The notes under the pieces are model-generated. The model made no database searches, was not told the origin of the DNA, and saw only the letters and a program-made list of their open reading frames with translations. A stretch of DNA of 64,000 nucleotides from Candidatus Poribacteria bacterium (GTDB lineage: Bacteria > Poribacteria > WGA-4E > WGA-3G), in the NCBI GenBank assembly GCA_965242965.1, contig OZ251518.1:4000001-4064000 (forward strand). Reading direction: 5' to 3'. This document shows positions 1 through 11,430 of the stretch, piece after piece (position 1 is the stretch's first letter; each line of letters opens with the position of its first letter). Both the position numbers and the translations under genes were made by a program.

Positions 1-2292
1 TCCTGCGTCGCTGTCGTTGCTGCCCATTTGGAAGTCGCCGGCGGGAATCAGCACCATTTCAGTAGTATCTGGTATAGCAGCGGGTTTGGGACGTGCTTGT
101 GTTTCCAATTGGACATCCTGTTGCACCTCCTGACCTCCTTGTGTAACATCCCTCGCGCAACGAAAACCGAAGTGGCCGTCCGTGCTCGCTGGCGTATTGC
201 CGCCGCGACCGGCGACACGCAAATCCTGTGCGGTAAAGATCCAACTGCCGCCGCGCAACACGCGCGAGGTTGTAACGTTTTTGTAATTCGTCATCACTTC
301 CGTTAGGTTCATCTCGCCGGCGAGCGGATTCCGCCGCGTTGAACGCGCATAGGAATCATACGCATCAAGGCACCACTCCCACACATTGCCGGCCATATCG
401 TATAACCCATACCCATTCGGCGGATACGTGCCAACCGGCATTGTGTTTCCAACAGTCTTGTTGTAGTTTGCTTGGCTGATGTCAATTGCATTGCCCCACG
501 GGTATTTCTTGCCCACTAAGCCGCCGCGGGCGGCTTTCTCCCACTCTGCCTCTGTCGGGAGCCGTTTGCCGGCCCACTGCGCATACGCTATCGCTGCATA
601 CCAACTCACATGCCTTACCGGATGGTTCGATTTCCCACGGGGATAATTATTGCCATCCCAATGCATGAGGTAACCGTGGAAGTCAGTGGGCATGGCGAAC
701 TGCTCATCAATTTTGTCTTTTTGCCACTGTGGGTTTGCATCGACAAACGCCTTGAACTGTGCATTCGTCACTTCGTATTTATCGATGTAGAACGCGTCTA
801 CGTAAACGGTATGCATCGGTTTTTCATGGCTGTATGCCTCGTGGTCGTTGCTGCCCATTTGGAACTCGCCGGCGGGGATGAGCACCATTTCAGTAGAGGC
901 TGGCATAGCAGCGGGTTTGGGACGTGCTCGTTTCTCCAATTGAACATCCCACGGAACTTCTTGTCCACCCCTCAGTGTCACACCTCTCACTTGGCTTTTG
1001 TAACCGGGGAGTTCTATGCCAAGTTCTACCTGCTTTTCTCGCGTTGTTCCGGTGTCAACCTCAAAGCCGCGCAACGGCGTTTTGCCGATAGCGGCACCGT
1101 CAAGATAAACACTCGCGCCGTTCGGTGTGCTGGTCACCTGCAAGGTTGCGATGGTGGCAAACTTTTCCAATCGGACTGTCCATGGCATGCTTTGCCCACC
1201 TTTCAATGTCAAGGTTGTTGTTCGGCTTTTATAGCCTTCGGATTCCAAGCGGACATGAACCTGTTTGACGCGTCTCACCCCAGTGTCGATTTGATAGCCG
1301 CGCATCGGTGTTTTCCCGATGACAATCCCCTCAAGATAAACCGTCGCGCCGCGGGGAGTGCTTGTTACGTTTAACGTCGCTATTGTAGATAAGGCATCGC
1401 CAGGAGGAGGAGGTGCTTCCCGCGGCAAGACGAATACAAAATCCCCCTGGTTCAGTTTGGGGTTGTTGATTTTGCCATACTGCGGGTTTTGCCCACGGTT
1501 ATATTTCGGGACTTCGGTTTTCAGATAGAGCCCTAACTCCGCGCCGGTAATGTAACCGTCCGCAATAGGTTCCTGCGCGATGCCTTTAACGAGGTTCAGA
1601 AATGCCTCCTTAAAAACACTGTGATCTGGCACGGTTTCATCGGCGCGGCCGGCCGTGATGAATTGTCGCACGGGATATTTGACGTTGTTTGAGACATAAG
1701 GCGGCGGAATCTGGCTGCGCGCATTGAGAATCGTGCCAGAGAAACAGCTGTCAAACATAAACAGCACATGCCGTGACTGCATGCGCCGTGACTGCGTCAC
1801 CAGCGATTCCATGTCCACACTTTTGCTACCGTCGATGCCGTCGTTTTTTGGGAAAGGCGCGTCTACCATGACGAGGTATCCAAGGTGTTCGCCATCGGCA
1901 AGTTCCTCAGTGTAACCGTGGCCCGCGTAGTAGAAAAGGAGTCGGGCATCCTCGTTTTTTCCGTTCTGGACGAACGTCTCAAAGGCATCTTCAAACTTGT
2001 CTTTTGTCAGGTCGGTTTTGAGGGTGACGTTGAAGCCGTGTGTTTTGAGTGCCGCGGCGACTTCCTGCACGTCGCGAGTTGCGCCGGGCAGCGGGTCCCA
2101 GCCATTTCGGTAATTTCCGTTTCCGACGATGAGCGCGTAAGAGGCTTTATAGAGTTCAATCTCTTCGCCGGTGTTTGTTCGGACGCTGATTTTCATGCCG
2201 CGGTTGGTTTGCGGGCAGAGGTCTGGCGCGCCGATGAAAATGGCGGCACTACCAAAGACGATGGCAATAAGGGTGATGAATACGGTTTTCAT
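1..2292 (-). CDS. Secreted caspase (peptidase C14)-2xPEGA-FGE/CLec-FGE protein, runs off the window start
   Basis: Manual translation from ATG 2292 (MKTVFITLIAIVFG...) in frame to base 1: FYYAGHG, MFDSCFSG, two PEGA-like repeats, RVLRGGSW...GFRCAR, then a second EMVLIPAGDFQMGS domain. Paralog of 5225 and 8403. Confidence 0.85.
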   Translation of the reverse strand, partial: MKTVFITLIAIVFGSAAIFIGAPDLCPQTNRGMKISVRTNTGEEIELYKASYALIVGNGNYRNGWDPLPGATRDVQEVAAALKTHGFNVTLKTDLTKDKFEDAFETFVQNGKNEDARLLFYYAGHGYTEELADGEHLGYLVMVDAPFPKNDGIDGSKSVDMESLVTQSRRMQSRHVLFMFDSCFSGTILNARSQIPPPYVSNNVKYPVRQFITAGRADETVPDHSVFKEAFLNLVKGIAQEPIADGYITGAELGLYLKTEVPKYNRGQNPQYGKINNPKLNQGDFVFVLPREAPPPPGDALSTIATLNVTSTPRGATVYLEGIVIGKTPMRGYQIDTGVRRVKQVHVRLESEGYKSRTTTLTLKGGQSMPWTVRLEKFATIATLQVTSTPNGASVYLDGAAIGKTPLRGFEVDTGTTREKQVELGIELPGYKSQVRGVTLRGGQEVPWDVQLEKRARPKPAAMPASTEMVLIPAGEFQMGSNDHEAYSHEKPMHTVYVDAFYIDKYEVTNAQFKAFVDANPQWQKDKIDEQFAMPTDFHGYLMHWDGNNYPRGKSNHPVRHVSWYAAIAYAQWAGKRLPTEAEWEKAARGGLVGKKYPWGNAIDISQANYNKTVGNTMPVGTYPPNGYGLYDMAGNVWEWCLDAYDSYARSTRRNPLAGEMNLTEVMTNYKNVTTSRVLRGGSWIFTAQDLRVAGRGGNTPASTDGHFGFRCARDVTQGGQEVQQDVQLETQARPKPAAIPDTTEMVLIPAGDFQMGSNDSDAG

Positions 2293-2364
2293 GATGGCGC
2301 GGATTTTAGCATGTTACGCCTTAAAAAGCAAGGGTATTTTCTCTATAATCAGAAAAACGTCCCA

Positions 2365-2606
2365 GTGCGCGCGTAGGGCGAGGGCCTGTCCCTCGCCGTG
2401 CTGGGTTCTGATTCCCGTTGCGCGCGTAGGGCGAGGGCCTGTCCCTCGCCGTGCTGCGGTCTAACGCCTCGGGAGTTCGTAGGGCGCGGGCCTGTCCCTC
2501 GCCATGCTGGGTTCTGGTTTTGCATCGAGACCAGGAGGTCTCTCCTACCGGTGTTGCATCGAGACCAGGAGGTCTCTCCTACCGGGGCCGCCTGTCCCTC
2601 GCCCTA
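2365..2606. repeat. REP cluster (GTAGGGCGAGGGCCTGTCCCTCGCC x3-4; ATCGAGACCAGGAGGTCTCTCCTAC x2)
   Basis: Directly visible palindromic repeats. The last REP supplies the TAG stop of the 2604..4253 gene. Confidence 0.9.
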
Positions 2607-4253
2607 CGGTTGTGTGGCGTTTTTGCTAAGCGTCGTAATCACAAGACGCGCTTCACTCTGTTGCGCATGAGGACGTTGCTGCTTCTTTTTCATCCCGCGA
2701 AAAGCGCGAGCTGCCTGTTCAGCATCTTCTGCCTTCAAAAATAGATACCCATCGCTTTCGTAGGACTCGATGACTGGAAACTTATCGGTCCGCGCCGCGA
2801 CGATAAGCAATTCTGCGCCAAACGGAGCTGCACACTCAAACTCTTCCGGAATCTCAACAACACGATTAACCTTCGACTCATCGATATAGTAGTTGTCATA
2901 GAGGAGCGTGTGCCGGCCATCGGCAAGGATATAGAGGATGCGGATGTAAGCCGCTTGATTGACACGGACAGAAACCAGCATTGTCTCGCCTTCGGTATAA
3001 AGCGGATGCTCACTCGGGCTGTTTGTCCAGACATCCACCCGCAGCGCGCCACTGACGAATTCGCCTTCGGCAAACGCTTTTTGTGATATGAGAGCCGCCT
3101 GCCAATTTTGCGGTTTGAAGTCCATATCCGTAAGGCGCGAGAAGGTGACTGCGGTGCCAGCCTTGACTGCACCGGTATCGACATCGCGCAGCGTCGTCCG
3201 AAGGGTGATTGCATCGCTGTTTTCCCAATAGGTGCCGGAGAGCAGCAACGTCGCGCCCGCACTTTTGGTAAAATCGCGCATCAGTTGCGCGGAACGGGGA
3301 CGAACGTTTCCGCGGGAACGGTGCTTTTCAGTGACGGTGTGCCACTTGCCGATTTGTCCGAGTTGTGCCTCCAGCGCGGCGCGGAATTCACGCGAAAAAC
3401 GGCTATTCATCTGCGTATCTTGATAGGTAGGGGCTACCAGCAACACTTTCCCTGCGAGGTGACGCACCTGTTTTGAGAGTTGAAAGACAACGGCACGCGC
3501 AATATCATCAACGGAAGTGATTGCGGCAGTTGAGACGAGGTGCTCAACGCGATTCATTACCTCGGTGTGCGACATCAGGGGACTATCTCCCACGCCGGAA
3601 TCGCCTTTTGTGGCTCTTTCCAATTCGGCGAAGGCGGTGTCTGCAGAAATCGCGACCGGGAGGGCGCGCCTACTGGAGAGTTTTGCCACCGTCAAGATAG
3701 TCTCCGCCTCTTTCAACGCTTCGTAAAGCGGCGCGGTGCTCAGGTATTTCTCCACGGCGAGAGAGATTTTATCCTCGTTTTCTGCGGTGTGGGCATCGGC
3801 AAGGATGCGCCGGATTTCGGCGCGGCGTTGGACAGCGCGTTGCGTATAGAGCCGCTTGAGCTCGGCGCGCGAAATCCATGCGAGGACATACGCGGTATGC
3901 TGGCCATCGTAATGCTCAAGCGAAAGTCCCATCAGTTGCAGCGCAGTGGAACTTTGAGTGGTTGCACTGAAATGTTCGGAGACACCGTGCCTCGTCTCTT
4001 CCTCGCCGGTGGAAATAACGCTTTTGATGTTTGTGACAATGTGGCGAGAAACTTCTGCGCGGGCGTTGTCTGCGGCAATCTGGCGTGATTCGGCACCGTT
4101 CCCCTGCGCACTCCCGAAGCCGACGAGATAACTGTGTGATGGATGCCTTTTGGACACGCCGAAGTTGCGGACCCAATCGGGTGCGTCGGCGTGCGCGGTT
4201 GTGGTGAGGGAGATAAGGAATATGAAAAATAGAGAGATGCGCGTGGTTTTCAT
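2604..4253 (-). CDS. Secreted LPP20-like / FlgO-like / DUF4384-like domain protein
   Basis: 549 aa with signal peptide; PDWV...YLVGFGSA...AADNARAEVS (LPP20-like); C-terminal VDVWTN...YTEGE...PFGAELL (DUF4384-like). Confidence 0.65.
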   Translation of the reverse strand: MKTTRISLFFIFLISLTTTAHADAPDWVRNFGVSKRHPSHSYLVGFGSAQGNGAESRQIAADNARAEVSRHIVTNIKSVISTGEEETRHGVSEHFSATTQSSTALQLMGLSLEHYDGQHTAYVLAWISRAELKRLYTQRAVQRRAEIRRILADAHTAENEDKISLAVEKYLSTAPLYEALKEAETILTVAKLSSRRALPVAISADTAFAELERATKGDSGVGDSPLMSHTEVMNRVEHLVSTAAITSVDDIARAVVFQLSKQVRHLAGKVLLVAPTYQDTQMNSRFSREFRAALEAQLGQIGKWHTVTEKHRSRGNVRPRSAQLMRDFTKSAGATLLLSGTYWENSDAITLRTTLRDVDTGAVKAGTAVTFSRLTDMDFKPQNWQAALISQKAFAEGEFVSGALRVDVWTNSPSEHPLYTEGETMLVSVRVNQAAYIRILYILADGRHTLLYDNYYIDESKVNRVVEIPEEFECAAPFGAELLIVAARTDKFPVIESYESDGYLFLKAEDAEQAARAFRGMKKKQQRPHAQQSEARLVITTLSKNATQP

Positions 4254-4646
4254 AGCGATCCTTGGAGAACAGATTCTAGCCTATCGTAATATAGCATCGG
4301 ATCGATTAAAAGGCAAGCGTTTTTTTAATCAGGATTTGCAGGATTTGCAAGATTAGAGGACATTCGCGTTATGGAAATCTGCTGGAGGTCTGAATTTTCT
4401 TTCCATTGATCTTTGTGATAGATCTAGACCGCAAGACGATCCGAGTTGACAATAAAGCGCAGATCTGAAGAAAAATTGATTGCGATCAAAAAAATAAAAT
4501 TGGATTTAGATATTCGCAAAAGAATACTATATTAAGCCTAGTAGGAGTTTTCAGGTGCCATTCGTCGCGCGGGAGAAAATGCTCCCGCTTCTTGTGCAAT
4601 CACTTGTTAGTGACTCTGAAATTAATATATAATAAGGAGAAAAATA

Positions 4647-4976
4647 ATGCAATTTGAAAGGAAGACGAAATCCGAGACAACAGAAACAGTAAAAATCTCT
4701 ACAGATCCAGCGGAGAGGGCCCATGTTCGGGTTAATCAAAAATCCGGTGAATATGAGATCACTACCTCGCCAATTCCCTGTGATCACAAATCGGGTGAAT
4801 GTAAAGTCATCACCTTGCGAATTCCTTCCATAGGTGGTTGTCTACGCAGATGCCTCACCTTCGTTAAGGATTGGAATTTTCTGTTCCAGGCAGTTAGATT
4901 CGTCATGGAGAACTTCCCAGAGTTTGTCTTAATTGTCTGGGCTTTGTTCCGTTTTCTAGGTGTTATGCCCAATTAG
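4647..4976 (+). CDS. Hypothetical 109-aa protein with C-terminal hydrophobic segment
   Basis: AAGGAG SD before ATG; lies in an AT-rich segment. Confidence 0.55.
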   Translation: MQFERKTKSETTETVKISTDPAERAHVRVNQKSGEYEITTSPIPCDHKSGECKVITLRIPSIGGCLRRCLTFVKDWNFLFQAVRFVMENFPEFVLIVWALFRFLGVMPN

Positions 4977-5224
4977 TTTCTGTAGTTCGGGATCGCCTGA
5001 TCCCGAACAGTCAAGATCGCTTGGAAACCAGTATGCCAGAGTTTCAGGCGATTTTGACCTACAGAGACGAGGCAAATCAACGTCAGTTGGTATTAGAGGG
5101 AAATCTTTATGCAAACAAGGCATGCTATCGGATAATTGGATAGTTTTGTTCGTCTTTTTGTGCAAAGGTGCAATTACTTGTAGTGCTACTATCTGCAAGA
5201 ACAGAAGGGGTAAAGGAGTTAGGG

Positions 5225-8092
5225 TTAAGGGGTAACATCCTTCGCGCAACGAAAACCGAGGTTGACGGCCGTGAACGTTGGCGGATTCCTGTTGCGATTG
5301 GCGACACGCAAGGCCAGCACTGACGAGAGCCAACTGCCGCCGCGCAACACGCGGTCATTGTGGTCCTGAACCTTCGCGAAGCCATCTTCAACCCATCCTC
5401 CCGCCACCGGATTCCGATGTGGCGAACGCCTATAGAAAGCTGCCTCCCACTCATCAATGCACCACTCGTAGACATTGCCCGCCATATTGTGTAATCCGTA
5501 TCCGTTCGCCGGGTAACTGCCGACAGGGGCAATGAACGCGTGCCCATCGTTCACACTGTCATCTGTCCAAGTTATCCAATCAATATTGAGGTTAGCTAGA
5601 GTGACATCGGCGAAGTTACACTGCGTTCCATCCGGCGCACTGTTACCCCACGGGTATTTCTTGCCTTCCAAGCCGCCGCGTGCGGCTTTCTCCCACTCTG
5701 CCTCTGTCGGGAGCCGTTTGCCGGCCCACTGCGCATACGCCATCGCTGCATACCAACTCACGAACATCACAGGGTGGGTGTCTTCCCCACTCGGATAACT
5801 GTTCTCCGTCCAGGAGTCTAGGTAGTCTCCATCATGATATTTGTCAGGGATGTTGTCCTTCCGCCACTGTGGGTTTGCATTGACAAACGCCTTGAACTGC
5901 GCGTTCGTCACCTCGTATTTGTCCATGTAGAATGCACCGACGTAAACGGTATGCACAGGTCTTTCATTGCCTTCCGTGTTGCTGTCGTTGCTGCCCATTT
6001 GGAACTCGCCGGCGGGGATCAGCGCCATATCCGCGCCATCTTGTCCAAGAATCGTTGATGGGTGCGCGCCTTGCTGAGGGATTGCCTGTTTTTCCAATTG
6101 GACATCTCGCGGTCCCTCCTGACCTCCTTGCGTAACAGCCCTCGCGCAACGAAAACCGATGAGGTTGAACGTGGCCGTGGGCGGCCTGCTGTTGCGATCG
6201 GCGACATGCAAGCTCCGTGCGACGAAGCCCCACGACCCGCCGCGCAACACGCGGGCATTGTGGGTCTGAACCTTCGCGAAGCCATCTCCAACCCATCCCC
6301 CCGCTACCGGATTCCGATGTGGAGAACGCGAATAGAAAGCTGCATCCCACTCATCAATGCACCACTCGTGGACATTGCCCGCCATATTGTGTAATCCGTA
6401 TCCGTTCGCCGGGTAACTGCCGACAGGGGCAGTGAACGCGTGACCATCGTTCACATTGTCATTTGTCCAAGTTATCTCATCAATATTGCGGTTAGCCAGA
6501 GTGACATCGGCGAAGTTACACTGCGTTCCGTCCGGCGCACTGTTGCCCCACGGGTATTTCTTGCCTTCCAAGCCGCCGCGTGCGGCTTTCTCCCACTCTG
6601 CCTCTGTTGGGAGCCGTTTGCCGGCCCACTGCGCATACGCCATCGCCGCATACCAGCTTACAAGAACAACTGGATGGTTACCGGCCCCACTCGGATAGTC
6701 GTTGCCATTCCAGAGGTTGAGGTAGTAGCCATTGTGGTATTTGTCAGGGATGTTGTCCTTCTGCCACTGTGGGTTTGCGTCGACAAACGCCTTGAACTGC
6801 GCGTTCGTCACCTCGTATTTGTCCATGTAGAATGCATTGATGTAAACGGTATGCACTGGTTTTTCATAGTCTTCTGCCTCGCTGTCGTTGCTGCCCATTT
6901 GGAACTCGCCGGCGGGGATGAGCACCATCTCGGCACCGTCTCGTCCAATTATCGTCGGAGCAAGCGTTGATTCTAAGGCGACATCCCAGGGGAGGTTTTG
7001 TCCACCTGTCACTGTAACGTTTTTCATTAGGTTTTTGTAACCAGCGAGTTCTAAGCCGATTTCTATCTGCTTTTCACGCCTGATTCCCGTGTCAATCTCC
7101 TGGTTGTGTAATGGCGTTTTTCCGACAGCGGCCCCATCAACGTAGACTGTTGCACCGCTGGGAGTGCTCGTTATATGCAACGTTGCGAGTGTAGGGAGTT
7201 CGGCAGTGTTTCGCTGCGGTAGCACGAAGACAAAATCGCCCTTATCTAACTTCGGGTCTTGGATTTTACCGTATTGTGGGTGTTGCGCCTCGTTGTATAT
7301 CGGGACCTGATTCTTCAGATACAATCCCAACTCCGCACCAGTGATATAACCATCGCGGAACGGTTCGGCAGCGCGGCCGTCAATGAGGTCAAGGAACGCT
7401 GTTTTGAACACGCTCCGGTCAGGCACGGGTTCGTTCGCGCGCCCGGCGGTGATGAATTGCCGCACGGGATGCCGAATGTTATCCGAAATGCTCTCGGGTC
7501 TCACCCGGTCGCGTGCATTCAAAATAGTGCCGGAGAAGCAGCAGTCAAACAGGAACAGGACATGCCGTGCGAGTATCGCCTTGGATTCACCGACAAGCGT
7601 TTCCATGTTGACGCTTTCTCGGACAAAGCCGAGTTTGTCGATGTCAGGTTCTGGTGCGTCTACCATGACGAGATACCCGCGTTCCTGGGCGTTGGCAAGT
7701 GGCAGGGTGTAACCGTGTCCTGCATAGTAAAAGAGGAGACGGTTGTTTTCGTCTGCCCCGTGCTCTAACACGAATGTGAGGAATGCGTCCTCAAATTCAT
7801 CTGCGGTGAGATCGGTTTTAAGGGTGACGTTGAAGTCGTGTGTTTGGAGTGCCTCGGCGACTTCTTTCACGTCTTGTATCGCGCCCGGCAGCGGGTCCCA
7901 TCCGTTAGTGTAGTTTCCATTTCCGATGACGAGTGCGTAAGAGGCGTTGTAGAGTTCAATGTGTTCGCCGGCACTGGTGCGGACGCTAATTTTCATGCCG
8001 CGGCGGGTTTGTGGGTGCAGCGTTGTGGTGCCGATGAAAATGAGGGCACCACAGAGCAAAACAACAAAAAGTGAGATGCTAAAGATTTTCAC
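5225..8092 (-). CDS. Secreted caspase-PEGA-2x FGE/CLec protein (putative DGR target)
   Basis: Likely GTG start at 8092 after GAGGTG SD; FYYAGHG and FDCCFSG His-Cys dyad; ITSTPSGATVYVDG..GKTP (PEGA); two RLPTEAEWEKAARGG...RGGSW...GFRC domains. Confidence 0.9.
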   Translation of the reverse strand: MKIFSISLFVVLLCGALIFIGTTTLHPQTRRGMKISVRTSAGEHIELYNASYALVIGNGNYTNGWDPLPGAIQDVKEVAEALQTHDFNVTLKTDLTADEFEDAFLTFVLEHGADENNRLLFYYAGHGYTLPLANAQERGYLVMVDAPEPDIDKLGFVRESVNMETLVGESKAILARHVLFLFDCCFSGTILNARDRVRPESISDNIRHPVRQFITAGRANEPVPDRSVFKTAFLDLIDGRAAEPFRDGYITGAELGLYLKNQVPIYNEAQHPQYGKIQDPKLDKGDFVFVLPQRNTAELPTLATLHITSTPSGATVYVDGAAVGKTPLHNQEIDTGIRREKQIEIGLELAGYKNLMKNVTVTGGQNLPWDVALESTLAPTIIGRDGAEMVLIPAGEFQMGSNDSEAEDYEKPVHTVYINAFYMDKYEVTNAQFKAFVDANPQWQKDNIPDKYHNGYYLNLWNGNDYPSGAGNHPVVLVSWYAAMAYAQWAGKRLPTEAEWEKAARGGLEGKKYPWGNSAPDGTQCNFADVTLANRNIDEITWTNDNVNDGHAFTAPVGSYPANGYGLHNMAGNVHEWCIDEWDAAFYSRSPHRNPVAGGWVGDGFAKVQTHNARVLRGGSWGFVARSLHVADRNSRPPTATFNLIGFRCARAVTQGGQEGPRDVQLEKQAIPQQGAHPSTILGQDGADMALIPAGEFQMGSNDSNTEGNERPVHTVYVGAFYMDKYEVTNAQFKAFVNANPQWRKDNIPDKYHDGDYLDSWTENSYPSGEDTHPVMFVSWYAAMAYAQWAGKRLPTEAEWEKAARGGLEGKKYPWGNSAPDGTQCNFADVTLANLNIDWITWTDDSVNDGHAFIAPVGSYPANGYGLHNMAGNVYEWCIDEWEAAFYRRSPHRNPVAGGWVEDGFAKVQDHNDRVLRGGSWLSSVLALRVANRNRNPPTFTAVNLGFRCAKDVTP

Positions 8093-8191
8093 GGGATTCA
8101 CCTCTTCAAGAAGAACGATTTTGGGCAAGGTTACGAAGAATTTCCTGCGGAGATGGTTGCCGGCCAGCAGAAAACCGAAAACCAAATGACG

Positions 8192-8229
8192 TTGACATTA
8201 ATTATACACAAAATGTTGATTAATGTCAA
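8192..8229 (-). promoter_or_regulatory. Consensus sigma70 promoter with overlapping 11-bp inverted repeat
   Basis: Minus strand TTGACA-17-TATAAT; TTGACATTAAT (8192-8202) / ATTAATGTCAA (8219-8229). Confidence 0.75.
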
Positions 8230-8402
8230 AGTTGTGGGGAAATTTCATGGCAATTCAGTTTTCCTCATAACCACTTTTCGTTTGATAGGCACGCAACTGA
8301 CTGGAAAACGGAACGCCTCTCTCCTCGGGTTGTGCCGAAGTTTGATTATTTGTGATGCCTTTTCTATAAACAGCAGATCAGAAGAGGTAAAGGTGTGACG
8401 AA

Positions 8403-11249
8403 TTAAGGGGTAACATCGCTCGCGCAACGAAAACCGGTGTCGACGTTCGTGAGCGTTGGCGGATTCCTGTAGCGATTGGCGACACGCATGAACTGCGCTG
8501 TACCGCCACAACCGCCGCCGCGCAACACGCGGGCATTGTGGTCCTGAACCTTCGCGAAGCCATCTCCAACCCATCCCCCCGCTACCGGATTCCGATGTGG
8601 AGAACGCGAATAGAAAGCTGCATCCCACTCATCAATGCACCACTCGTAGACATTGCCCGCCATATTGTGTAATCCGTATCCGTTCGCCGGGTAACTGCCG
8701 ACAGGGGCAGTGAGCGCGTGACCGTCGTTCACATTGGCATCCGTCTCAATTCTCTCATCAATGTTAGCATCAATGTTAGCCAGAGTGACATCGGCGAAGT
8801 TACACTGCGTTCCGTCCGGCGCACTGTTGCCCCACGGGTATTTCTTGCCTTCCAAGCCGCCGCGTGCGGCTTTCTCCCATTCTGCCTCTGTCGGGAGCCG
8901 TTTGCCGGCCCACTGCGCATACGCCATCGCCGCATACCAGCTTACAAAAACAACTGGATAGTTACCTTGTCCACTCGGATAGTCGTTGCCATTCCAGAGG
9001 CCTAGGTAGTCTCCATCGTGGTAGACGTGCGGAATTTGGTTTTTCCGCCACTGCGGATTTGCATCGACAAATGCCTTGAACTGCGCGTTCGTCACTTCGT
9101 ATTTGTCGATGTAGAATGCATCGACATAAACGGTATGCACCGGTTTTTCATTGTTATTTGCCTCGCTGTCGTCGCTGCCCATCTGGAACTCACCTGCGGG
9201 GATGAGCACCATCTCGCTCGTGTCTGGCATAGCATTGGCTTTGGGAGGTGCTTGTTTTTCCAGTAACTTCGTTGGAGTAACAGCCCTCGCGCAACGAAAA
9301 CCGCCGCTTGAGTCCGTGGCCGCGGGCGTAAACCAGAAGCGATAGGCGACGCGCAAGCCCGATGCGGCGGTGCCCCACGACCCGCCGCGCCACACGCGGG
9401 CACTGTAGGTCTGAACCTTCGCGAATCCATCTCCAACCCATCCACGCCCCACCGGATTCCGATGTGGCGAACGCCTATAGAAAGTTGCATCCCACTCATC
9501 AATGCACCACTCGTAGACATTGCCCGCCATATTGTGTAATCCGTATCCGTTCGCCGGGTAACTGCCGACAGGGGCAGTGAGCGCGTGACCATCGTTCACA
9601 TTGGCATCTGTCCAAATTCTATAATCAGGATCGAGGTTAAGCAGAGTGACATCGGCGAAGTTACACTGCGTTCCATCCGGCGCACTGTTGCCCCACGAGT
9701 AGGTCTTGCCATCTAACCCACCACGGGCGGCTTTCTCCCATTCTGCCTCTGTCGGGAGCCGTTTGCCGGCCCACTGCGCATACGCCATCGCCGCATACCA
9801 GCTTACAAAAACAACTGGATAGTTACCTGTTCCACTCGGATAGTCGTTGCCATTCCAGAGGTCTAGGTAGCTTCCATCATGATATTTCTCAGAGATGTTG
9901 TCTTTCCGCCACTGTGGATTTGCATCGACAAACGTCTTGAACTGCGCGTTCGTCACTTCGTATTTGTCGATGTAGAATGCATCGACGTAAACGGTATGCA
10001 CCGGTTTTTCATTGTCTTTTGCGTTGCTGTCGTCGCTGCCCATCTGGAAGTCGCCGGCGGGGATGAGCACCATCTCCGCGCCATCTTGTCCAATAATCTG
10101 TTGGACAAGCATAGGTTCTAAGGGGATATCCCAGGGCACGTTTTCTCCGCCTATCAAGGTGACGTTTTTCACCCGGCTTTTGTAACCGGCGAGTTCTAAG
10201 CCGATTTCTACCGGCTTCTCACGCTGCACACCCGTGTCAATTTCATAGTTGCGTAAGGGCGTTTCCCCGATGGGGGCACCGTCAAGATAGACCGTCGCGC
10301 CGTTCGGTGTGCTCGTCACATTCACCGTCGCGAGTGGCGGGAGGTCTGCCTGAGGTGGCGAAGTATGCCGCTGAGGCAGCACGAAGACAAAATCGCCTTT
10401 GTCTAACTTCGGGTCTCGGATTTTACCGTATTGTGGGTGTTGCGCCTCGTTGTATATCGGTACCTGATTCTTCAGATACAATCCCAACTCTGCACCGGTA
10501 ATGTAACCATCGCGGAACGGTTCAGCAGCGCGGCCATCAATGAGGTCGAGGAATGCGGTTTTGAACACGCTCCGGTCAGGCACGGGTTCGTTCGCGCGCC
10601 CGGCGGTGATGAATTGCCGCACAGGATGCCGAATGTTATCCGAAATGCTCTCGGGGCTGATTCTGTCGCGCGCGTTGAGAATGGTGCCGGAGAAGCAGCA
10701 GTCAAACAGAAACAGGACATGCCGTGCGAGTATCGCCTTGGATTCACCGACAAGGGTTTCCATGTTGATACTGCCTCGGACGAAGCCGAGTTTGTCGGTG
10801 TCGGGCTCTGGTGCGTCTACCATGACGAGATAGCCGCGCTCCTGCTCGTTGGCAAGCGGCAGGGTGTAACCGTGTCCGGCGTAGTAAAAGAGGAGCCGGT
10901 TGTTTTCGTCTGCGCCATGTTCCAACACGAACGTGAGGAACGCGTCCTCAAACTCATCTGCGGTGAGATCGGTTTTGAGGGTGACGTTGAAGTCGTGTGT
11001 TTTGAGTGCCTCGGCGACTTCTTTCACGTCTTGTAGTGCCCCGGGCAGCGGGTCCCATCCGTTTGTGTAATTGCCATTTCCGATGACGAGTGCATAGGAG
11101 GCGTTATAGAGTTCAATGTGTTCGCCGGCACCGGTGCGGACGCTAATTTTCATGCCGCGGCTGGTTTGGGAGCGCAAGTCTGTGGTGCTGATGAAGATGA
11201 TGGCACCACAGAGGATGATAACAAATAGGAAAATGAGAGACGTTTTCAT
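8403..11249 (-). CDS. Secreted caspase-PEGA-2x FGE/CLec protein (putative DGR target)
   Basis: 948 aa, same architecture as 5225..8092, caspase domain nearly identical. Confidence 0.92.
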   Translation of the reverse strand: MKTSLIFLFVIILCGAIIFISTTDLRSQTSRGMKISVRTGAGEHIELYNASYALVIGNGNYTNGWDPLPGALQDVKEVAEALKTHDFNVTLKTDLTADEFEDAFLTFVLEHGADENNRLLFYYAGHGYTLPLANEQERGYLVMVDAPEPDTDKLGFVRGSINMETLVGESKAILARHVLFLFDCCFSGTILNARDRISPESISDNIRHPVRQFITAGRANEPVPDRSVFKTAFLDLIDGRAAEPFRDGYITGAELGLYLKNQVPIYNEAQHPQYGKIRDPKLDKGDFVFVLPQRHTSPPQADLPPLATVNVTSTPNGATVYLDGAPIGETPLRNYEIDTGVQREKPVEIGLELAGYKSRVKNVTLIGGENVPWDIPLEPMLVQQIIGQDGAEMVLIPAGDFQMGSDDSNAKDNEKPVHTVYVDAFYIDKYEVTNAQFKTFVDANPQWRKDNISEKYHDGSYLDLWNGNDYPSGTGNYPVVFVSWYAAMAYAQWAGKRLPTEAEWEKAARGGLDGKTYSWGNSAPDGTQCNFADVTLLNLDPDYRIWTDANVNDGHALTAPVGSYPANGYGLHNMAGNVYEWCIDEWDATFYRRSPHRNPVGRGWVGDGFAKVQTYSARVWRGGSWGTAASGLRVAYRFWFTPAATDSSGGFRCARAVTPTKLLEKQAPPKANAMPDTSEMVLIPAGEFQMGSDDSEANNNEKPVHTVYVDAFYIDKYEVTNAQFKAFVDANPQWRKNQIPHVYHDGDYLGLWNGNDYPSGQGNYPVVFVSWYAAMAYAQWAGKRLPTEAEWEKAARGGLEGKKYPWGNSAPDGTQCNFADVTLANIDANIDERIETDANVNDGHALTAPVGSYPANGYGLHNMAGNVYEWCIDEWDAAFYSRSPHRNPVAGGWVGDGFAKVQDHNARVLRGGGCGGTAQFMRVANRYRNPPTLTNVDTGFRCASDVTP

Positions 11250-11273: not shown

Positions 11274-11430
11274 GTCGGTGATCGAACGGATACGAACTAT
11301 CGAGACCGGGAGGTCTCGCCTACGGGAGCATCCGATGCGTCGGTGATCGAACGGATACGAACCATCGAGACCGGGAGGTCTCTCCTACAGGAGCATCCGA
11401 TGTGTCGGTTATTGAACGGATACGAACGCC
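11274..11430. repeat. About 2.5 tandem ~64-bp units each containing a REP
   Basis: GTCGGTGATCGAACGGATACGAAC-ATCGAGACCGGGAGGTCTC-CCTAC-GGAGCATCCGATG repeated. Confidence 0.85.

What the first reader, a model, noticed from the sequence alone, without database searches (positions are those of the whole stretch)
154..9398. Five DGR-type variable repeats in secreted caspase-FGE/CLec proteins, with no RT or template in the window
Seen: each complete FGE domain ends in a 111-bp block (154-264, 5243-5353, 6143-6253, 8421-8531, 9288-9398; minus strand) running from CGCGTGT(T/G)GCGCGGCGG to GGTTTTCGTTGCGCG. Aligned by hand, codon positions 1-2 vary freely while position 3 stays fixed. After RGGxW: ctc/ggc/ggc/ggc/atc. 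After VA: aat/gat/aat/tat/ggt. After R: aac/aac/tac/ttc/ggc. Last four codons before GF: gcc-gtc-aac-ctc, ttc-aac-ctc-atc, aac-gtc-gac-acc, gac-tca-agc-ggc, gac-ggc-cac-ttc. Sequence just upstream is near-identical among the four domains of the two complete genes. Established: DGRs mutate template adenines, turning AAC/AAT into NNC/NNT, typically at the end of FGE-type C-type-lectin folds. Inference: a remote template resembling TGG AAC ... GTC GCC AAT CGC AAC ... ACG AAC ACG AAC AAC AAC AAC GGT TTT CGT TGC diversifies this array in trans. Two sub-types (GGC AGT..CCA vs GGG TCG..CCC) hint at two or more templates.
Basis: partly seen in the sequence, partly recalled or inferred. Interest (0 to 1): 0.92.

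Follow-up and report, generated by a model that had tools for sequence, protein, structure and literature searches.

The report
Orphaned DGR variable repeats, caspase-lectin genes
The five hypervariable gene ends were written by a mutagenic retroelement (DGR) that relatives still carry, but this genome keeps only a helper gene and frozen targets, a situation already described in other bacteria.

Summary
Observation confirmed. The five 111-bp blocks sit where stated, each closing an FGE/C-type-lectin domain of three caspase-PEGA-FGE genes. They belong to 23 such blocks in 17 ORFs of this genome. Variation falls on the adenines of template repeats (TRs) found in three relatives of the same family: 0.659 against 0.164 mismatches per site. 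Third codon bases stay fixed while the amino acids change.

This 5.70-Mb, 2-contig assembly has no reverse transcriptase (RT) and no non-coding TR copy. It holds a truncated cassette: target gene plus intact avd (NF033474, 118 bits). The RT-TR half is replaced by repeat-filled DNA. Two window blocks are identical, at full depth, in contigs of four sponge metagenome runs from two studies.

Best reading (about 0.7): leftover DGR targets after recent loss of RT-TR. Ten blocks still fit one vanished template. Main rival: RT-TR exists but is unassembled or polymorphic.

Orphan targets, caspase-lectin targets and tandem variable repeats are all published (PMC4891356, PMC7517822, PMC10907252). This scan has noted orphaned DGR repeats before on other DNA. 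New member of a known kind.

The parts
154..264 (-). VR-type block b154. It is internal, closing the first of three FGE domains of the caspase-PEGA-FGE gene that runs off the window start. AGT-type.
   Evidence: Alignment and codons. It deviates at 3 of 77 non-adenine sites from the ten-block core consensus, with 20 of 34 adenine sites changed. It is followed by a coding linker and no hairpin.
5243..5353 (-). VR-type block b5243, at the C-terminus of the 986-aa gene. AGT-type.
   Evidence: It deviates at 3 of 77 non-adenine sites. Contigs of 4 runs span 4981/5002-5385 with 0 other letters.
6143..6253 (-). VR-type block b6143, internal in the 986-aa gene. TCG-type (second template kind).
   Evidence: It deviates at 8 of 77 non-adenine sites from the core consensus. 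It differs from b5243 at 11 of 81 non-adenine columns despite 93% identical flanks.
8421..8531 (-). VR-type block b8421, at the C-terminus of the 948-aa gene. AGT-type.
   Evidence: It deviates at 3 of 77 non-adenine sites. Contigs of 4 runs span 7847/7849-8563 with 0 other letters.
9288..9398 (-). VR-type block b9288, internal in the 948-aa gene. TCG-type.
   Evidence: It deviates at 7 of 77 non-adenine sites. It differs from b6143 at 8 of 81 non-adenine columns.
1..2292 (-). Caspase (Peptidase_C14) + 2 PEGA + FGE gene. The 3' part lies before the window. The whole frame is 1287 aa stop to stop, with three FGE domains and three blocks (C1:3998578, 3999433, 4000264).
5225..8185 (-). Caspase + PEGA + 2 FGE gene (986 aa from the first listed start codon).
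   Evidence: Pfam: FGE-sulfatase 3.1e-131 in 2 stretches, Peptidase_C14 4.2e-19, PEGA 1.5e-13.
8403..11249 (-). Caspase + PEGA + 2 FGE gene (948 aa).
   Evidence: Pfam: FGE-sulfatase 1.1e-129 in 2 stretches, Peptidase_C14 9.8e-19, PEGA 7.8e-11.
5190..5224 (-). Non-coding leader after the stop codon of the 986-aa gene. It resembles the conserved element that follows VR genes elsewhere in this genome and in relatives. The hairpin that follows that element elsewhere is missing here. The coordinates are approximate and were read off the printed string.
   Evidence: compared with c1244307, c1252982 and c5271114.
8365..8402 (-). The same kind of leader after the stop codon of the 948-aa gene, with no perfect hairpin. 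The coordinates are approximate.
2604..4253 (-). DUF4384/LPP20 lipoprotein-like gene between the caspase genes. It is a neighbour, not a DGR part.
   Evidence: It is 90% identical to a syntenic gene in same-genus genome G002.

Best explanation
The five blocks are genuine variable repeats (VRs) written by a diversity-generating retroelement (DGR). They sit in the ligand-binding loops of lectin-fold (FGE-like, non-catalytic) domains of caspase-PEGA-FGE proteins.

Mechanism, as established for DGRs. An error-prone RT copies a template repeat. It misreads adenines, and the cDNA overwrites the VR. AAC/AAT codons therefore become NNC/NNT.

What is shown here:
- the adenine-site footprint;
- the sharp 5' boundary of DNA homology at the block start;
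- a real avd gene;
- complete avd-RT-TR cassettes in relatives of the same family.

What is inferred:
- This lineage had such a cassette at C1:5.271 Mb (target gene, avd, RT, TR) that served at least ten VRs in eight genes in trans, including b154, b5243 and b8421.
- A second, older template wrote the TCG-type blocks b6143 and b9288.
- The RT-TR half was then lost and replaced by REP/MITE-type repeats.
- The VRs are now frozen leftovers that evolve like ordinary sequence.
For: 1. Footprint. Across 21 gap-free blocks, pairwise mismatch is 0.659 per site at the 30 TR-adenine columns and 0.164 at the 81 other columns. The third base is kept in 0.727 of different-amino-acid pairs at AAY codons, against 0.368 in the upstream domain.

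2. Homogenised block. Identity at non-adenine columns is 0.836, against 0.42-0.62 in the 40 codons upstream. b154 against b5243 or b8421 has 6 of 81 non-adenine mismatches, with flanks only 54-58% identical.

3. Rewriting after duplication. The genes at C1:1252982 and C1:1260897 are identical for about 320 nt upstream, yet differ at 21 block positions. Eighteen of these are at relatives' TR-adenine columns. The other three are at columns where the own blocks also show A.

4. Relatives. G004, G009 and G024 have avd, an RT of 356-372 aa and a TR just after the RT. G009's best three VRs differ from its TR at 1-2 of 77 non-adenine sites and 18-25 of 34 adenine sites.

5. Truncated own cassette. 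The ORF at C1:5271392-5271757 matches PF22296 bAvd (82.5 bits, cut-off 40) and NF033474 (118 bits, cut-off 80). It is 76-82% identical to the relatives' avd. It follows a cohesin-dockerin-FGE target gene that is 55% identical to the target in G024's cassette. Homology to the relatives stops at the end of avd, and about 1.5 kb of repeat DNA follows.

6. No RT and no TR. PF00078 gave 0 matches in the own genome. tblastn with the two DGR RTs (L005, L006) gave nothing below E 0.3. All 23 blocks are in long ORFs.

7. Static VRs. In runs X7, X8, X9 and X11 (2 studies), contigs cover b5243 and b8421 with 0 other letters, at depths like the neighbouring pieces.

8. Repeated decay in the family. Avd pieces without a DGR-type RT occur in G007 and G020.

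9. Control. 16 other FGE domains of this genome that lack the block show mixed third bases in the same loops, judged by eye from the printed codons.
Against: - The ten core blocks look fresh. They deviate at only 0-3 of 77 non-adenine sites from their own consensus. That consensus was built from those same blocks, so the measure is biased low. In G009, which has a working cassette, only 3 of the 29 scored blocks are that close to the TR. Loss must therefore be recent, or the RT-TR is simply not in the assembly.
- The avd ORF is intact.
- The assembly is estimated 94.66% complete, in 2 contigs.
- The population evidence comes from assembled contigs, which drop rare variants. It covers only 2 of the 5 blocks, and at least one run may be the sample the genome came from.
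- Both same-genus genomes also lack RT and avd. If the loss were that old, the identical flanks of the C1:1252982 and C1:1260897 pair would be hard to explain. Independent losses have to be assumed.
Confidence: 0.7

Rival explanations
1. The DGR is still active. The RT and TR exist in this organism or population but are missing from the assembly. Possible reasons are a collapse at the repeat island after avd, a presence/absence polymorphism, or a place on an unassembled mobile element. The window VRs would then be serviced in trans.
For: - Ten VRs fit one consensus at 0-3 of 77 non-adenine sites, as well as or better than most VRs in a relative with an intact cassette.
- avd is intact.
- Three VRs keep a perfect 9-bp hairpin with a 4-nt loop downstream.
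- Genes with identical flanks differ only in the VR.
- Estimated completeness is 94.66%.
Against: - No RT of any kind was found in 5.70 Mb.
- There is no TR-like non-coding copy.
- The assembly is nearly closed, without N.
- b5243 and b8421 are identical in contigs of 4 runs from 2 studies, at flank-like depth.
- The window's C-terminal VRs have lost the hairpin.
Confidence: 0.2
2. The template and RT are supplied from outside the cell line, by a phage or another co-resident element of the sponge community. The genome would keep only targets and avd.
For: avd and pristine targets exist without RT or TR. The block's 24-base 5' end occurs unchanged in DGR TRs and VRs of many phyla, which suggests that cassettes of this type move between lineages.
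Against: - The 24-mer has 0 exact matches in viral contigs.
- Among the 29 blocks scored from the genome-contig hits, none is closer than 16 of 77 non-adenine mismatches to the own consensus.
- The own avd is syntenic with chromosomal cassettes of relatives.
- The VRs are static in 4 runs.
Confidence: 0.05
3. No retroelement is involved. The pattern would come from ordinary divergence of paralogous lectin loops under diversifying selection, together with codon bias or gene conversion.
For: The variable codons lie in loops that differ among FGE-fold paralogues in general.
Against: - Selection on amino acids does not hold third bases fixed (0.727 against 0.368).
- It does not place the changes on the adenines of relatives' templates.
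- It does not give block identity above flank identity.
- It does not give 21 changes inside otherwise identical DNA.
- FGE paralogues without the block lack the pattern.
Confidence: 0.02

Closest known systems
[quoted passage not shown]
   Same: The genomes have neither an RT gene nor a TR, yet keep FGE/lectin-type target genes. Their VRs differ from the TRs of DGR-bearing relatives mostly at adenines, and the authors read them as leftovers. Remote (trans) targets also occur.
   Different: Here the comparison is between genera of one family, not between isolates of one species. An intact avd and the cassette's own target remain. There are 23 blocks in 17 ORFs, with up to three per protein. 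The N-terminal parts are caspase-PEGA, not lipoprotein only.
Cyanobacterial DGRs with remote variable proteins, including orthocaspase-CLec fusions (BMC Genomics 2020, PMC7517822; passages read)
   Same: A caspase-type peptidase is grafted onto C-terminal CLec domains. Many remote paralogous targets are spread over the genome. Transposable elements lie near the cassettes.
   Different: That paper reports remote TR matches only near the 3' ends of genes, and RT/TR are present. Here three of the five window blocks are internal, and the genome has no RT or TR.
Clade 5 DGRs of multicellular bacteria, e.g. Thiohalocapsa PB-PSB1 (PNAS 2024, PMC10907252; passages read)
   Same: Target genes have three tandem CLec domains, each with a VR. 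Caspase-like, CHAT and peptidase effector domains occur in or beside the targets. MITE-like repeats degrade DGR components. The authors read the targets as diversified sensors of conflict systems.
   Different: Eight of nine loci there diversify in nature, whereas here no variation was seen. Whether the relatives' RTs here fall in clade 5 was not tested. No STAND, vWA or MoxR partner was looked for. The host is a sponge-associated bacterium.
TvpA of T. denticola (PDB 2Y3C) and formylglycine-generating enzymes (PDB 6MUJ, 2Q17 and others)
   Same: The sequence match to FGE structures is E 1.2e-44, and to TvpA E 4.3e-10. The VR covers the C-terminal loops of the fold.
   Different: In the alignment to 6MUJ, the loop that holds the two cysteines of the enzyme is shortened by three residues and carries no cysteine. 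That those cysteines are the catalytic ones is recalled. The domain is therefore a binding module, not an FGE.

Membership tests
Diversity-generating retroelement (complete, working system) | DGR-type reverse transcriptase encoded in the genome | tested here: not met
   PF00078 gave 0 matches and 0 first-look candidates in G000. tblastn with the two DGR RTs (L005, L006) gave a best E of 0.32; the six other RT-locus ORFs in the query set (five RTs and one Cas1-like) gave one weak RT row, E 0.004 over 63 residues of L001. The assembly has 2 contigs and is estimated 94.66% complete.
Diversity-generating retroelement (complete, working system) | Template repeat: a non-coding, A-rich near-copy of the VR | tested here: not met
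   blastn with word size 7 found 23 block copies and one 32-bp fragment. All 23 lie in ORFs of 272-1287 aa.
Diversity-generating retroelement (complete, working system) | VR differences concentrated at template adenines | tested here: met
   Tested by proxy, because no own TR exists. With the adenine columns of three relatives' TRs, mismatch is 0.659 against 0.164 per site, and 29 of 30 against 18 of 81 columns vary in the five window blocks.
Diversity-generating retroelement (complete, working system) | Accessory variability determinant (Avd) | tested here: met
   C1:5271392-5271757 matches PF22296 at 82.5 bits (cut-off 40) and NF033474 at 118 bits (cut-off 80). It lies outside the window.
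Diversity-generating retroelement (complete, working system) | Target protein with a C-type-lectin/FGE fold and the VR at the C-terminal end of the fold | tested here: met
   PF03781 matches span profile positions 3-255 and end at the blocks. PDB matches are to FGE structures and TvpA.
Diversity-generating retroelement (complete, working system) | Cis elements 3' of the VR (an IMH-like end and a hairpin/cruciform; their role is recalled from work on phage BPP-1) | tested here: inconclusive
   The 3' end GGTTTTCGTTGCGCG is invariant in the five blocks. A perfect 9-bp stem with a 4-nt loop follows 3 VRs elsewhere in the genome. The two C-terminal window VRs keep only the leader, and the three internal ones run into coding sequence.
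Diversity-generating retroelement (complete, working system) | Ongoing diversification in the population | tested here: not met
   Contigs of 4 runs cover b5243 and b8421 with 0 other letters. Contigs can hide rare variants. The other three blocks could not be judged, because the tables are cut.
Formylglycine-generating enzyme (catalytic) | Cysteine pair in the active-site loop | tested here: not met
   In the alignment to 6MUJ, the enzyme has two cysteines in the loop between RGGS and RVA. The query has a 3-residue gap there and no cysteine. That these are the catalytic residues is recalled.
Caspase-type peptidase (Peptidase_C14) | Domain match above the curated cut-off; His-Cys dyad | tested here: met
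   PF00656 scores 68.4-69.6 bits (cut-off 21.4) in all three proteins. The motifs AGHG and D(S/C)CFSG are visible in the translations. That they are the dyad is recalled, not tested.

The most novel reading that the evidence does not exclude
The RT-TR module is a removable part. In this sponge-associated lineage the mutagenic half of the cassette would be cut out, and perhaps regained, at REP/MITE-rich junctions. avd, the cis elements and at least ten template-matched VRs stay in place. Hypermutation of a whole family of caspase-lectin sensors would then be switched off and on at the population level. The sequenced haplotype would be the 'off' state, not a dead end.
Probability: 0.12. Interest if true: 0.6.

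Novelty: new member of a known kind. Interest (0 to 1): 0.4.

Why it matters
The finding shows that a large family of 'sulfatase-modifying factor'-annotated domains in a sponge-associated bacterium are retroelement-written binding modules and not enzymes. At least 40 FGE-domain matches were found, and 23 carry the block. The DGR of this bacterial family serves many scattered genes, including proteins that couple a caspase-type protease to two or three variable lectin domains.

The genome also gives a dated snapshot of DGR decay. The target gene, avd and pristine VRs remain, while the RT and TR are gone.

For annotation, VR footprints without an RT should not be read as active hypermutation.

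I found no paper on DGRs in Poribacteria or sponge symbionts in the library searched. The phenomenon itself is already in print for other bacteria.

Tried and rejected
- Non-coding TR in the own genome. blastn with word size 7 and the five blocks plus 30-base flanks found only coding copies and one 32-bp fragment at C1:31251-31282. That fragment is VR-like at its 3' end, not TR-like.
- RT in the own genome. A PF00078 search and tblastn with 8 ORFs from relatives' RT loci (7 RTs and one Cas1-like) found no RT. The only strong row was the Cas1-like ORF.
- RT remnant after avd. The 1.5 kb after avd holds only repeat-like DNA, and the listed ORFs are short. No tblastn hit fell there.
- Same-genus comparison. 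The G002 ortholog is only about 78-83% identical in DNA, and its block differs at non-adenine sites too. It could not date the last rewriting.
- Strain-level relatives with an RT after avd. The metagenome contig scan gave 45 loci. The best full-length match is 56% identical and the highest best-segment identity is 64%, so none is near-identical. Records near the window's genome may be left out by the tool.
- External donor. The exact 24-mer has 0 hits in viral contigs. The 29 blocks scored from the genome-contig hits are all at least 16 of 77 non-adenine mismatches from the own consensus.
- Reads at b154, b6143 and b9288. The tables are cut (186 further differences are not shown), and paralogous contigs overlay these parts. 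I draw no conclusion for these three blocks.
- Structure prediction, complex prediction and the large protein searches were not run. Pfam and PDB sequence matches already settle the fold.
Full report
**What is there**

The window starts with three minus-strand genes:
- 1..2292, which runs off the window start; the whole frame is 1287 aa stop to stop;
- 5225..8185, 986 aa;
- 8403..11249, 948 aa.

Each encodes an N-terminal hydrophobic segment, a Peptidase_C14 caspase domain, one or two PEGA domains, and two or three FGE-sulfatase domains. The five blocks of the finding are at the stated coordinates. Each forms the last 37 codons of one FGE domain. Two are at protein C-termini (5243-5353 and 8421-8531). 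Three are internal and run on into a linker and the next domain (154-264, 6143-6253, 9288-9398).

The domain aligns with solved formylglycine-generating enzymes (E 1.2e-44) and with the DGR variable protein TvpA (2Y3C, E 4.3e-10). The enzyme's cysteine-bearing loop is shortened by three residues and has no cysteine. It is therefore a lectin-fold binding module, not an FGE.

**Is the pattern real?**

The genome (G000: 5,700,154 bases, 2 contigs, no N) was laid for scripts. blastn with the five blocks found 23 copies in 17 ORFs, plus one 32-bp fragment. For the counts I used 21 of these. I dropped C1:331487 because it has a three-codon insertion. I dropped C1:1437200 because it breaks off mid-block. 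I also dropped the fragment.

The adenine columns were defined independently of this genome, from the template repeats of three relatives (see below). That gives 30 of 111 columns.
- Pairwise mismatch is 0.659 per site at adenine columns and 0.164 at the other columns.
- In the five window blocks, 29 of 30 adenine columns vary, against 18 of 81 other columns (Fisher p 2.6e-13).
- At the 12 codons that are AAY in those templates, pairs with different amino acids still share the third base in 1597 of 2196 cases (0.727). In the upstream domain the figure is 5432 of 14770 (0.368) (one search had a codon-mapping error caused by stop codons and was redone).
- Block identity at non-adenine columns (0.836) exceeds that of the 40 upstream codons (0.42-0.62).
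- Sixteen other FGE domains of this genome, without the block, show mixed third bases in the same loops. This was judged by eye from the printed codons.

The clearest single case lies outside the window. The genes at C1:1252982 and C1:1260897 are identical for about 320 nt upstream of the block. They then differ at 21 block positions. Eighteen are at the relatives' adenine columns, and three are at columns where the own blocks also show A.

**Relatives**

Of 40 relatives searched, three of the same family (G004, G009, G024) have a small RT of 356-372 aa with an IGNLTSQ motif. That this motif marks DGR RTs is recalled. Each RT lies just after an avd gene and just before an A-rich repeat.

These repeats read TGG AAC AAT ... 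AAT CGC AAC ... ACG AAC ACG AAC AAC AAC AAC GG(G/T) TT(C/T) CG(G/T) TG.

In G009, the three VRs that match best differ from the TR at 1-2 of 77 non-adenine sites and at 18-25 of 34 adenine sites. Most of the 29 blocks scored differ at 4-10 non-adenine sites or contain indels.

**What this genome has and lacks**

- No RT. PF00078 gave 0 matches and 0 candidates. tblastn with the two DGR RTs (L005, L006) gave nothing below E 0.3; the only other row was E 0.004 for the group II-type RT L001, over 63 residues.
- No TR. Every block copy is coding.
- A real avd at C1:5271392-5271757. It matches PF22296 (82.5 bits, cut-off 40) and NF033474 'diversity-generating retroelement protein Avd' (118 bits, cut-off 80). 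It is 76-82% identical to the relatives' avd.
- The avd follows a cohesin-dockerin-FGE gene whose block is C1:5271114. That gene is 55% identical over its full length to the target gene of G024's cassette.
- Homology to the relatives stops at the end of avd. Next comes about 1.5 kb of short palindromic repeats and no long ORF.

Earlier notes of this scan describe dense REP/MITE repeats in this genome and call it Candidatus Poribacteria. I did not test the name. The runs that hold the window are labelled sponge metagenome or carry coded organism names.

Avd pieces without a DGR-type RT also occur in G007 and G020. The two same-genus genomes have neither avd nor RT.

**How many templates, and how recent?**

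Ten blocks in eight genes, including b154, b5243, b8421 and the cassette's own VR, deviate from their common consensus at 0-3 of 77 non-adenine sites. At the same time, 17-22 of 34 adenine sites are changed. This is circular, because the consensus comes from those same blocks. Independent of that, their pairwise non-adenine mismatches are 1-9 of 81, with flanks as low as 51-58% identical.

b6143 and b9288 carry TCG instead of AGT before TGG. They differ from the AGT-type blocks of the same two genes at 11-13 of 81 non-adenine columns, although the flanks are 92-97% identical. They differ from each other at 8 of 81. This supports a second, probably older, template.

**Cis elements**

A conserved non-coding leader follows the stop codon of many VR genes, here and in relatives. 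A perfect 9-bp stem with a 4-nt loop follows it at C1:1244307, 1252982 and 5271114. The window's two C-terminal VRs keep the leader only.

**Population**

Eleven runs hold part of the stretch. I laid four of them (X7, X8, X9, X11; 2 studies). All four are held as assembled contigs. In each run, one contig spans 4981/5002-5385 and another spans 7847/7849-8563, with 0 other letters and depths like the neighbouring unique pieces. b5243 and b8421 are therefore the same in all four runs.

There are limits to this evidence. Contigs drop rare variants. One run may be the source of the genome. The tables are cut, so the other three blocks cannot be judged.

**Reading**

The blocks are DGR products. 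The simplest account of the truncated cassette, the absence of any RT or TR, and the static VRs is loss of the RT-TR half, which leaves orphaned targets (confidence about 0.7). The freshness of the ten core blocks and the intact avd mean that the loss is recent, or that the RT-TR is unassembled or polymorphic (about 0.2). An outside donor is possible but unsupported. Ordinary paralogue divergence is excluded.

**Known or new?**

All the main features are already in print:
- Leftover targets in T. denticola isolates that have neither RT nor TR (PMC4891356; passages read).
- Orthocaspase-CLec targets and many remote targets in cyanobacteria (PMC7517822; passages read).
- Targets with three tandem VR-bearing CLec domains, and MITE-driven decay of DGR parts, in Thiohalocapsa (PMC10907252; passages read).

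Supplements of these papers were not opened, and their target lists may bear on how unusual 23 blocks per genome is.

Two full-text searches found no paper on DGRs in Poribacteria or sponge symbionts. This scan has met orphaned DGR repeats several times on other DNA. This is a new member of a known kind. It is well documented but not surprising to a specialist.

Noticed in passing
window 2372-2587, 4980-5070, 11299-11391: Short interspersed repeats between the genes draw word depths hundreds to thousands of times the neighbouring depth. They also produce many 'joints' between these places in all four runs. This fits the REP/MITE families described in earlier notes on this genome.
   Followed up: partly
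G000 C1:5271760-5273290 (L014 5761-7290): The 1.5 kb after avd is built of repeated palindromic modules (for example CGCGGGGGACAGGCCCCCGCGCTACGG and GTAGGGCGAGGGCCTGTCCCTCGCC, several copies each). It sits exactly where relatives have the RT and TR.
   Followed up: partly
G000 C1:31251-31282 and C1:29660-30064: There is a 32-bp fragment of a block's 3' end, with stop codon and leader, but no gene around it. Nearby is an FGE-domain match that covers only profile positions 3-139 in a 185-aa frame. This is probably a decayed target gene.
   Followed up: no
G000 C1:1437200: An FGE domain whose block follows the family for about 21 codons and then diverges completely. The Pfam match ends at profile position 238. 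This is a truncated or recombined variable repeat.
   Followed up: no
G017 (relative), e.g. L004 and 10 further contigs: Long ORFs (736-1436 aa) with RT matches and a YLDDIIIFS motif resemble eukaryotic LTR-retrotransposon pol genes (recalled). They are repeated on many contigs of this bacterial assembly. This suggests host DNA in that bin.
   Followed up: no
L010 (G014) and G000 C1:5472930-5473940: In G014 a 543-aa RT lies directly before a 336-aa ORF. Its homologue (38% identity over 337 residues, E 5e-78) exists in the own genome without an RT. From the sequence it looks like Cas1 (recalled), which would mean an RT-associated CRISPR adaptation module in the relative.
   Followed up: no
Genome-contig loci L110-L138: The 24-base start of the block (coding RVLRGGSW) occurs letter for letter in DGR templates and variable repeats of MAGs labelled Bacteroidales, Saprospiraceae, Verrucomicrobia, Hydrogenedentota, Planctomycetes-type and others. 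The rest of those repeats is at least 16 of 77 non-adenine sites away.
   Followed up: partly
G000 C1:2678561-2680450: A 955-aa protein has three FGE domains separated by long T/P/D-rich repeat linkers (TGTVTPP...). Its three blocks are among the most decayed, at 10-14 of 77 non-adenine deviations.
   Followed up: no
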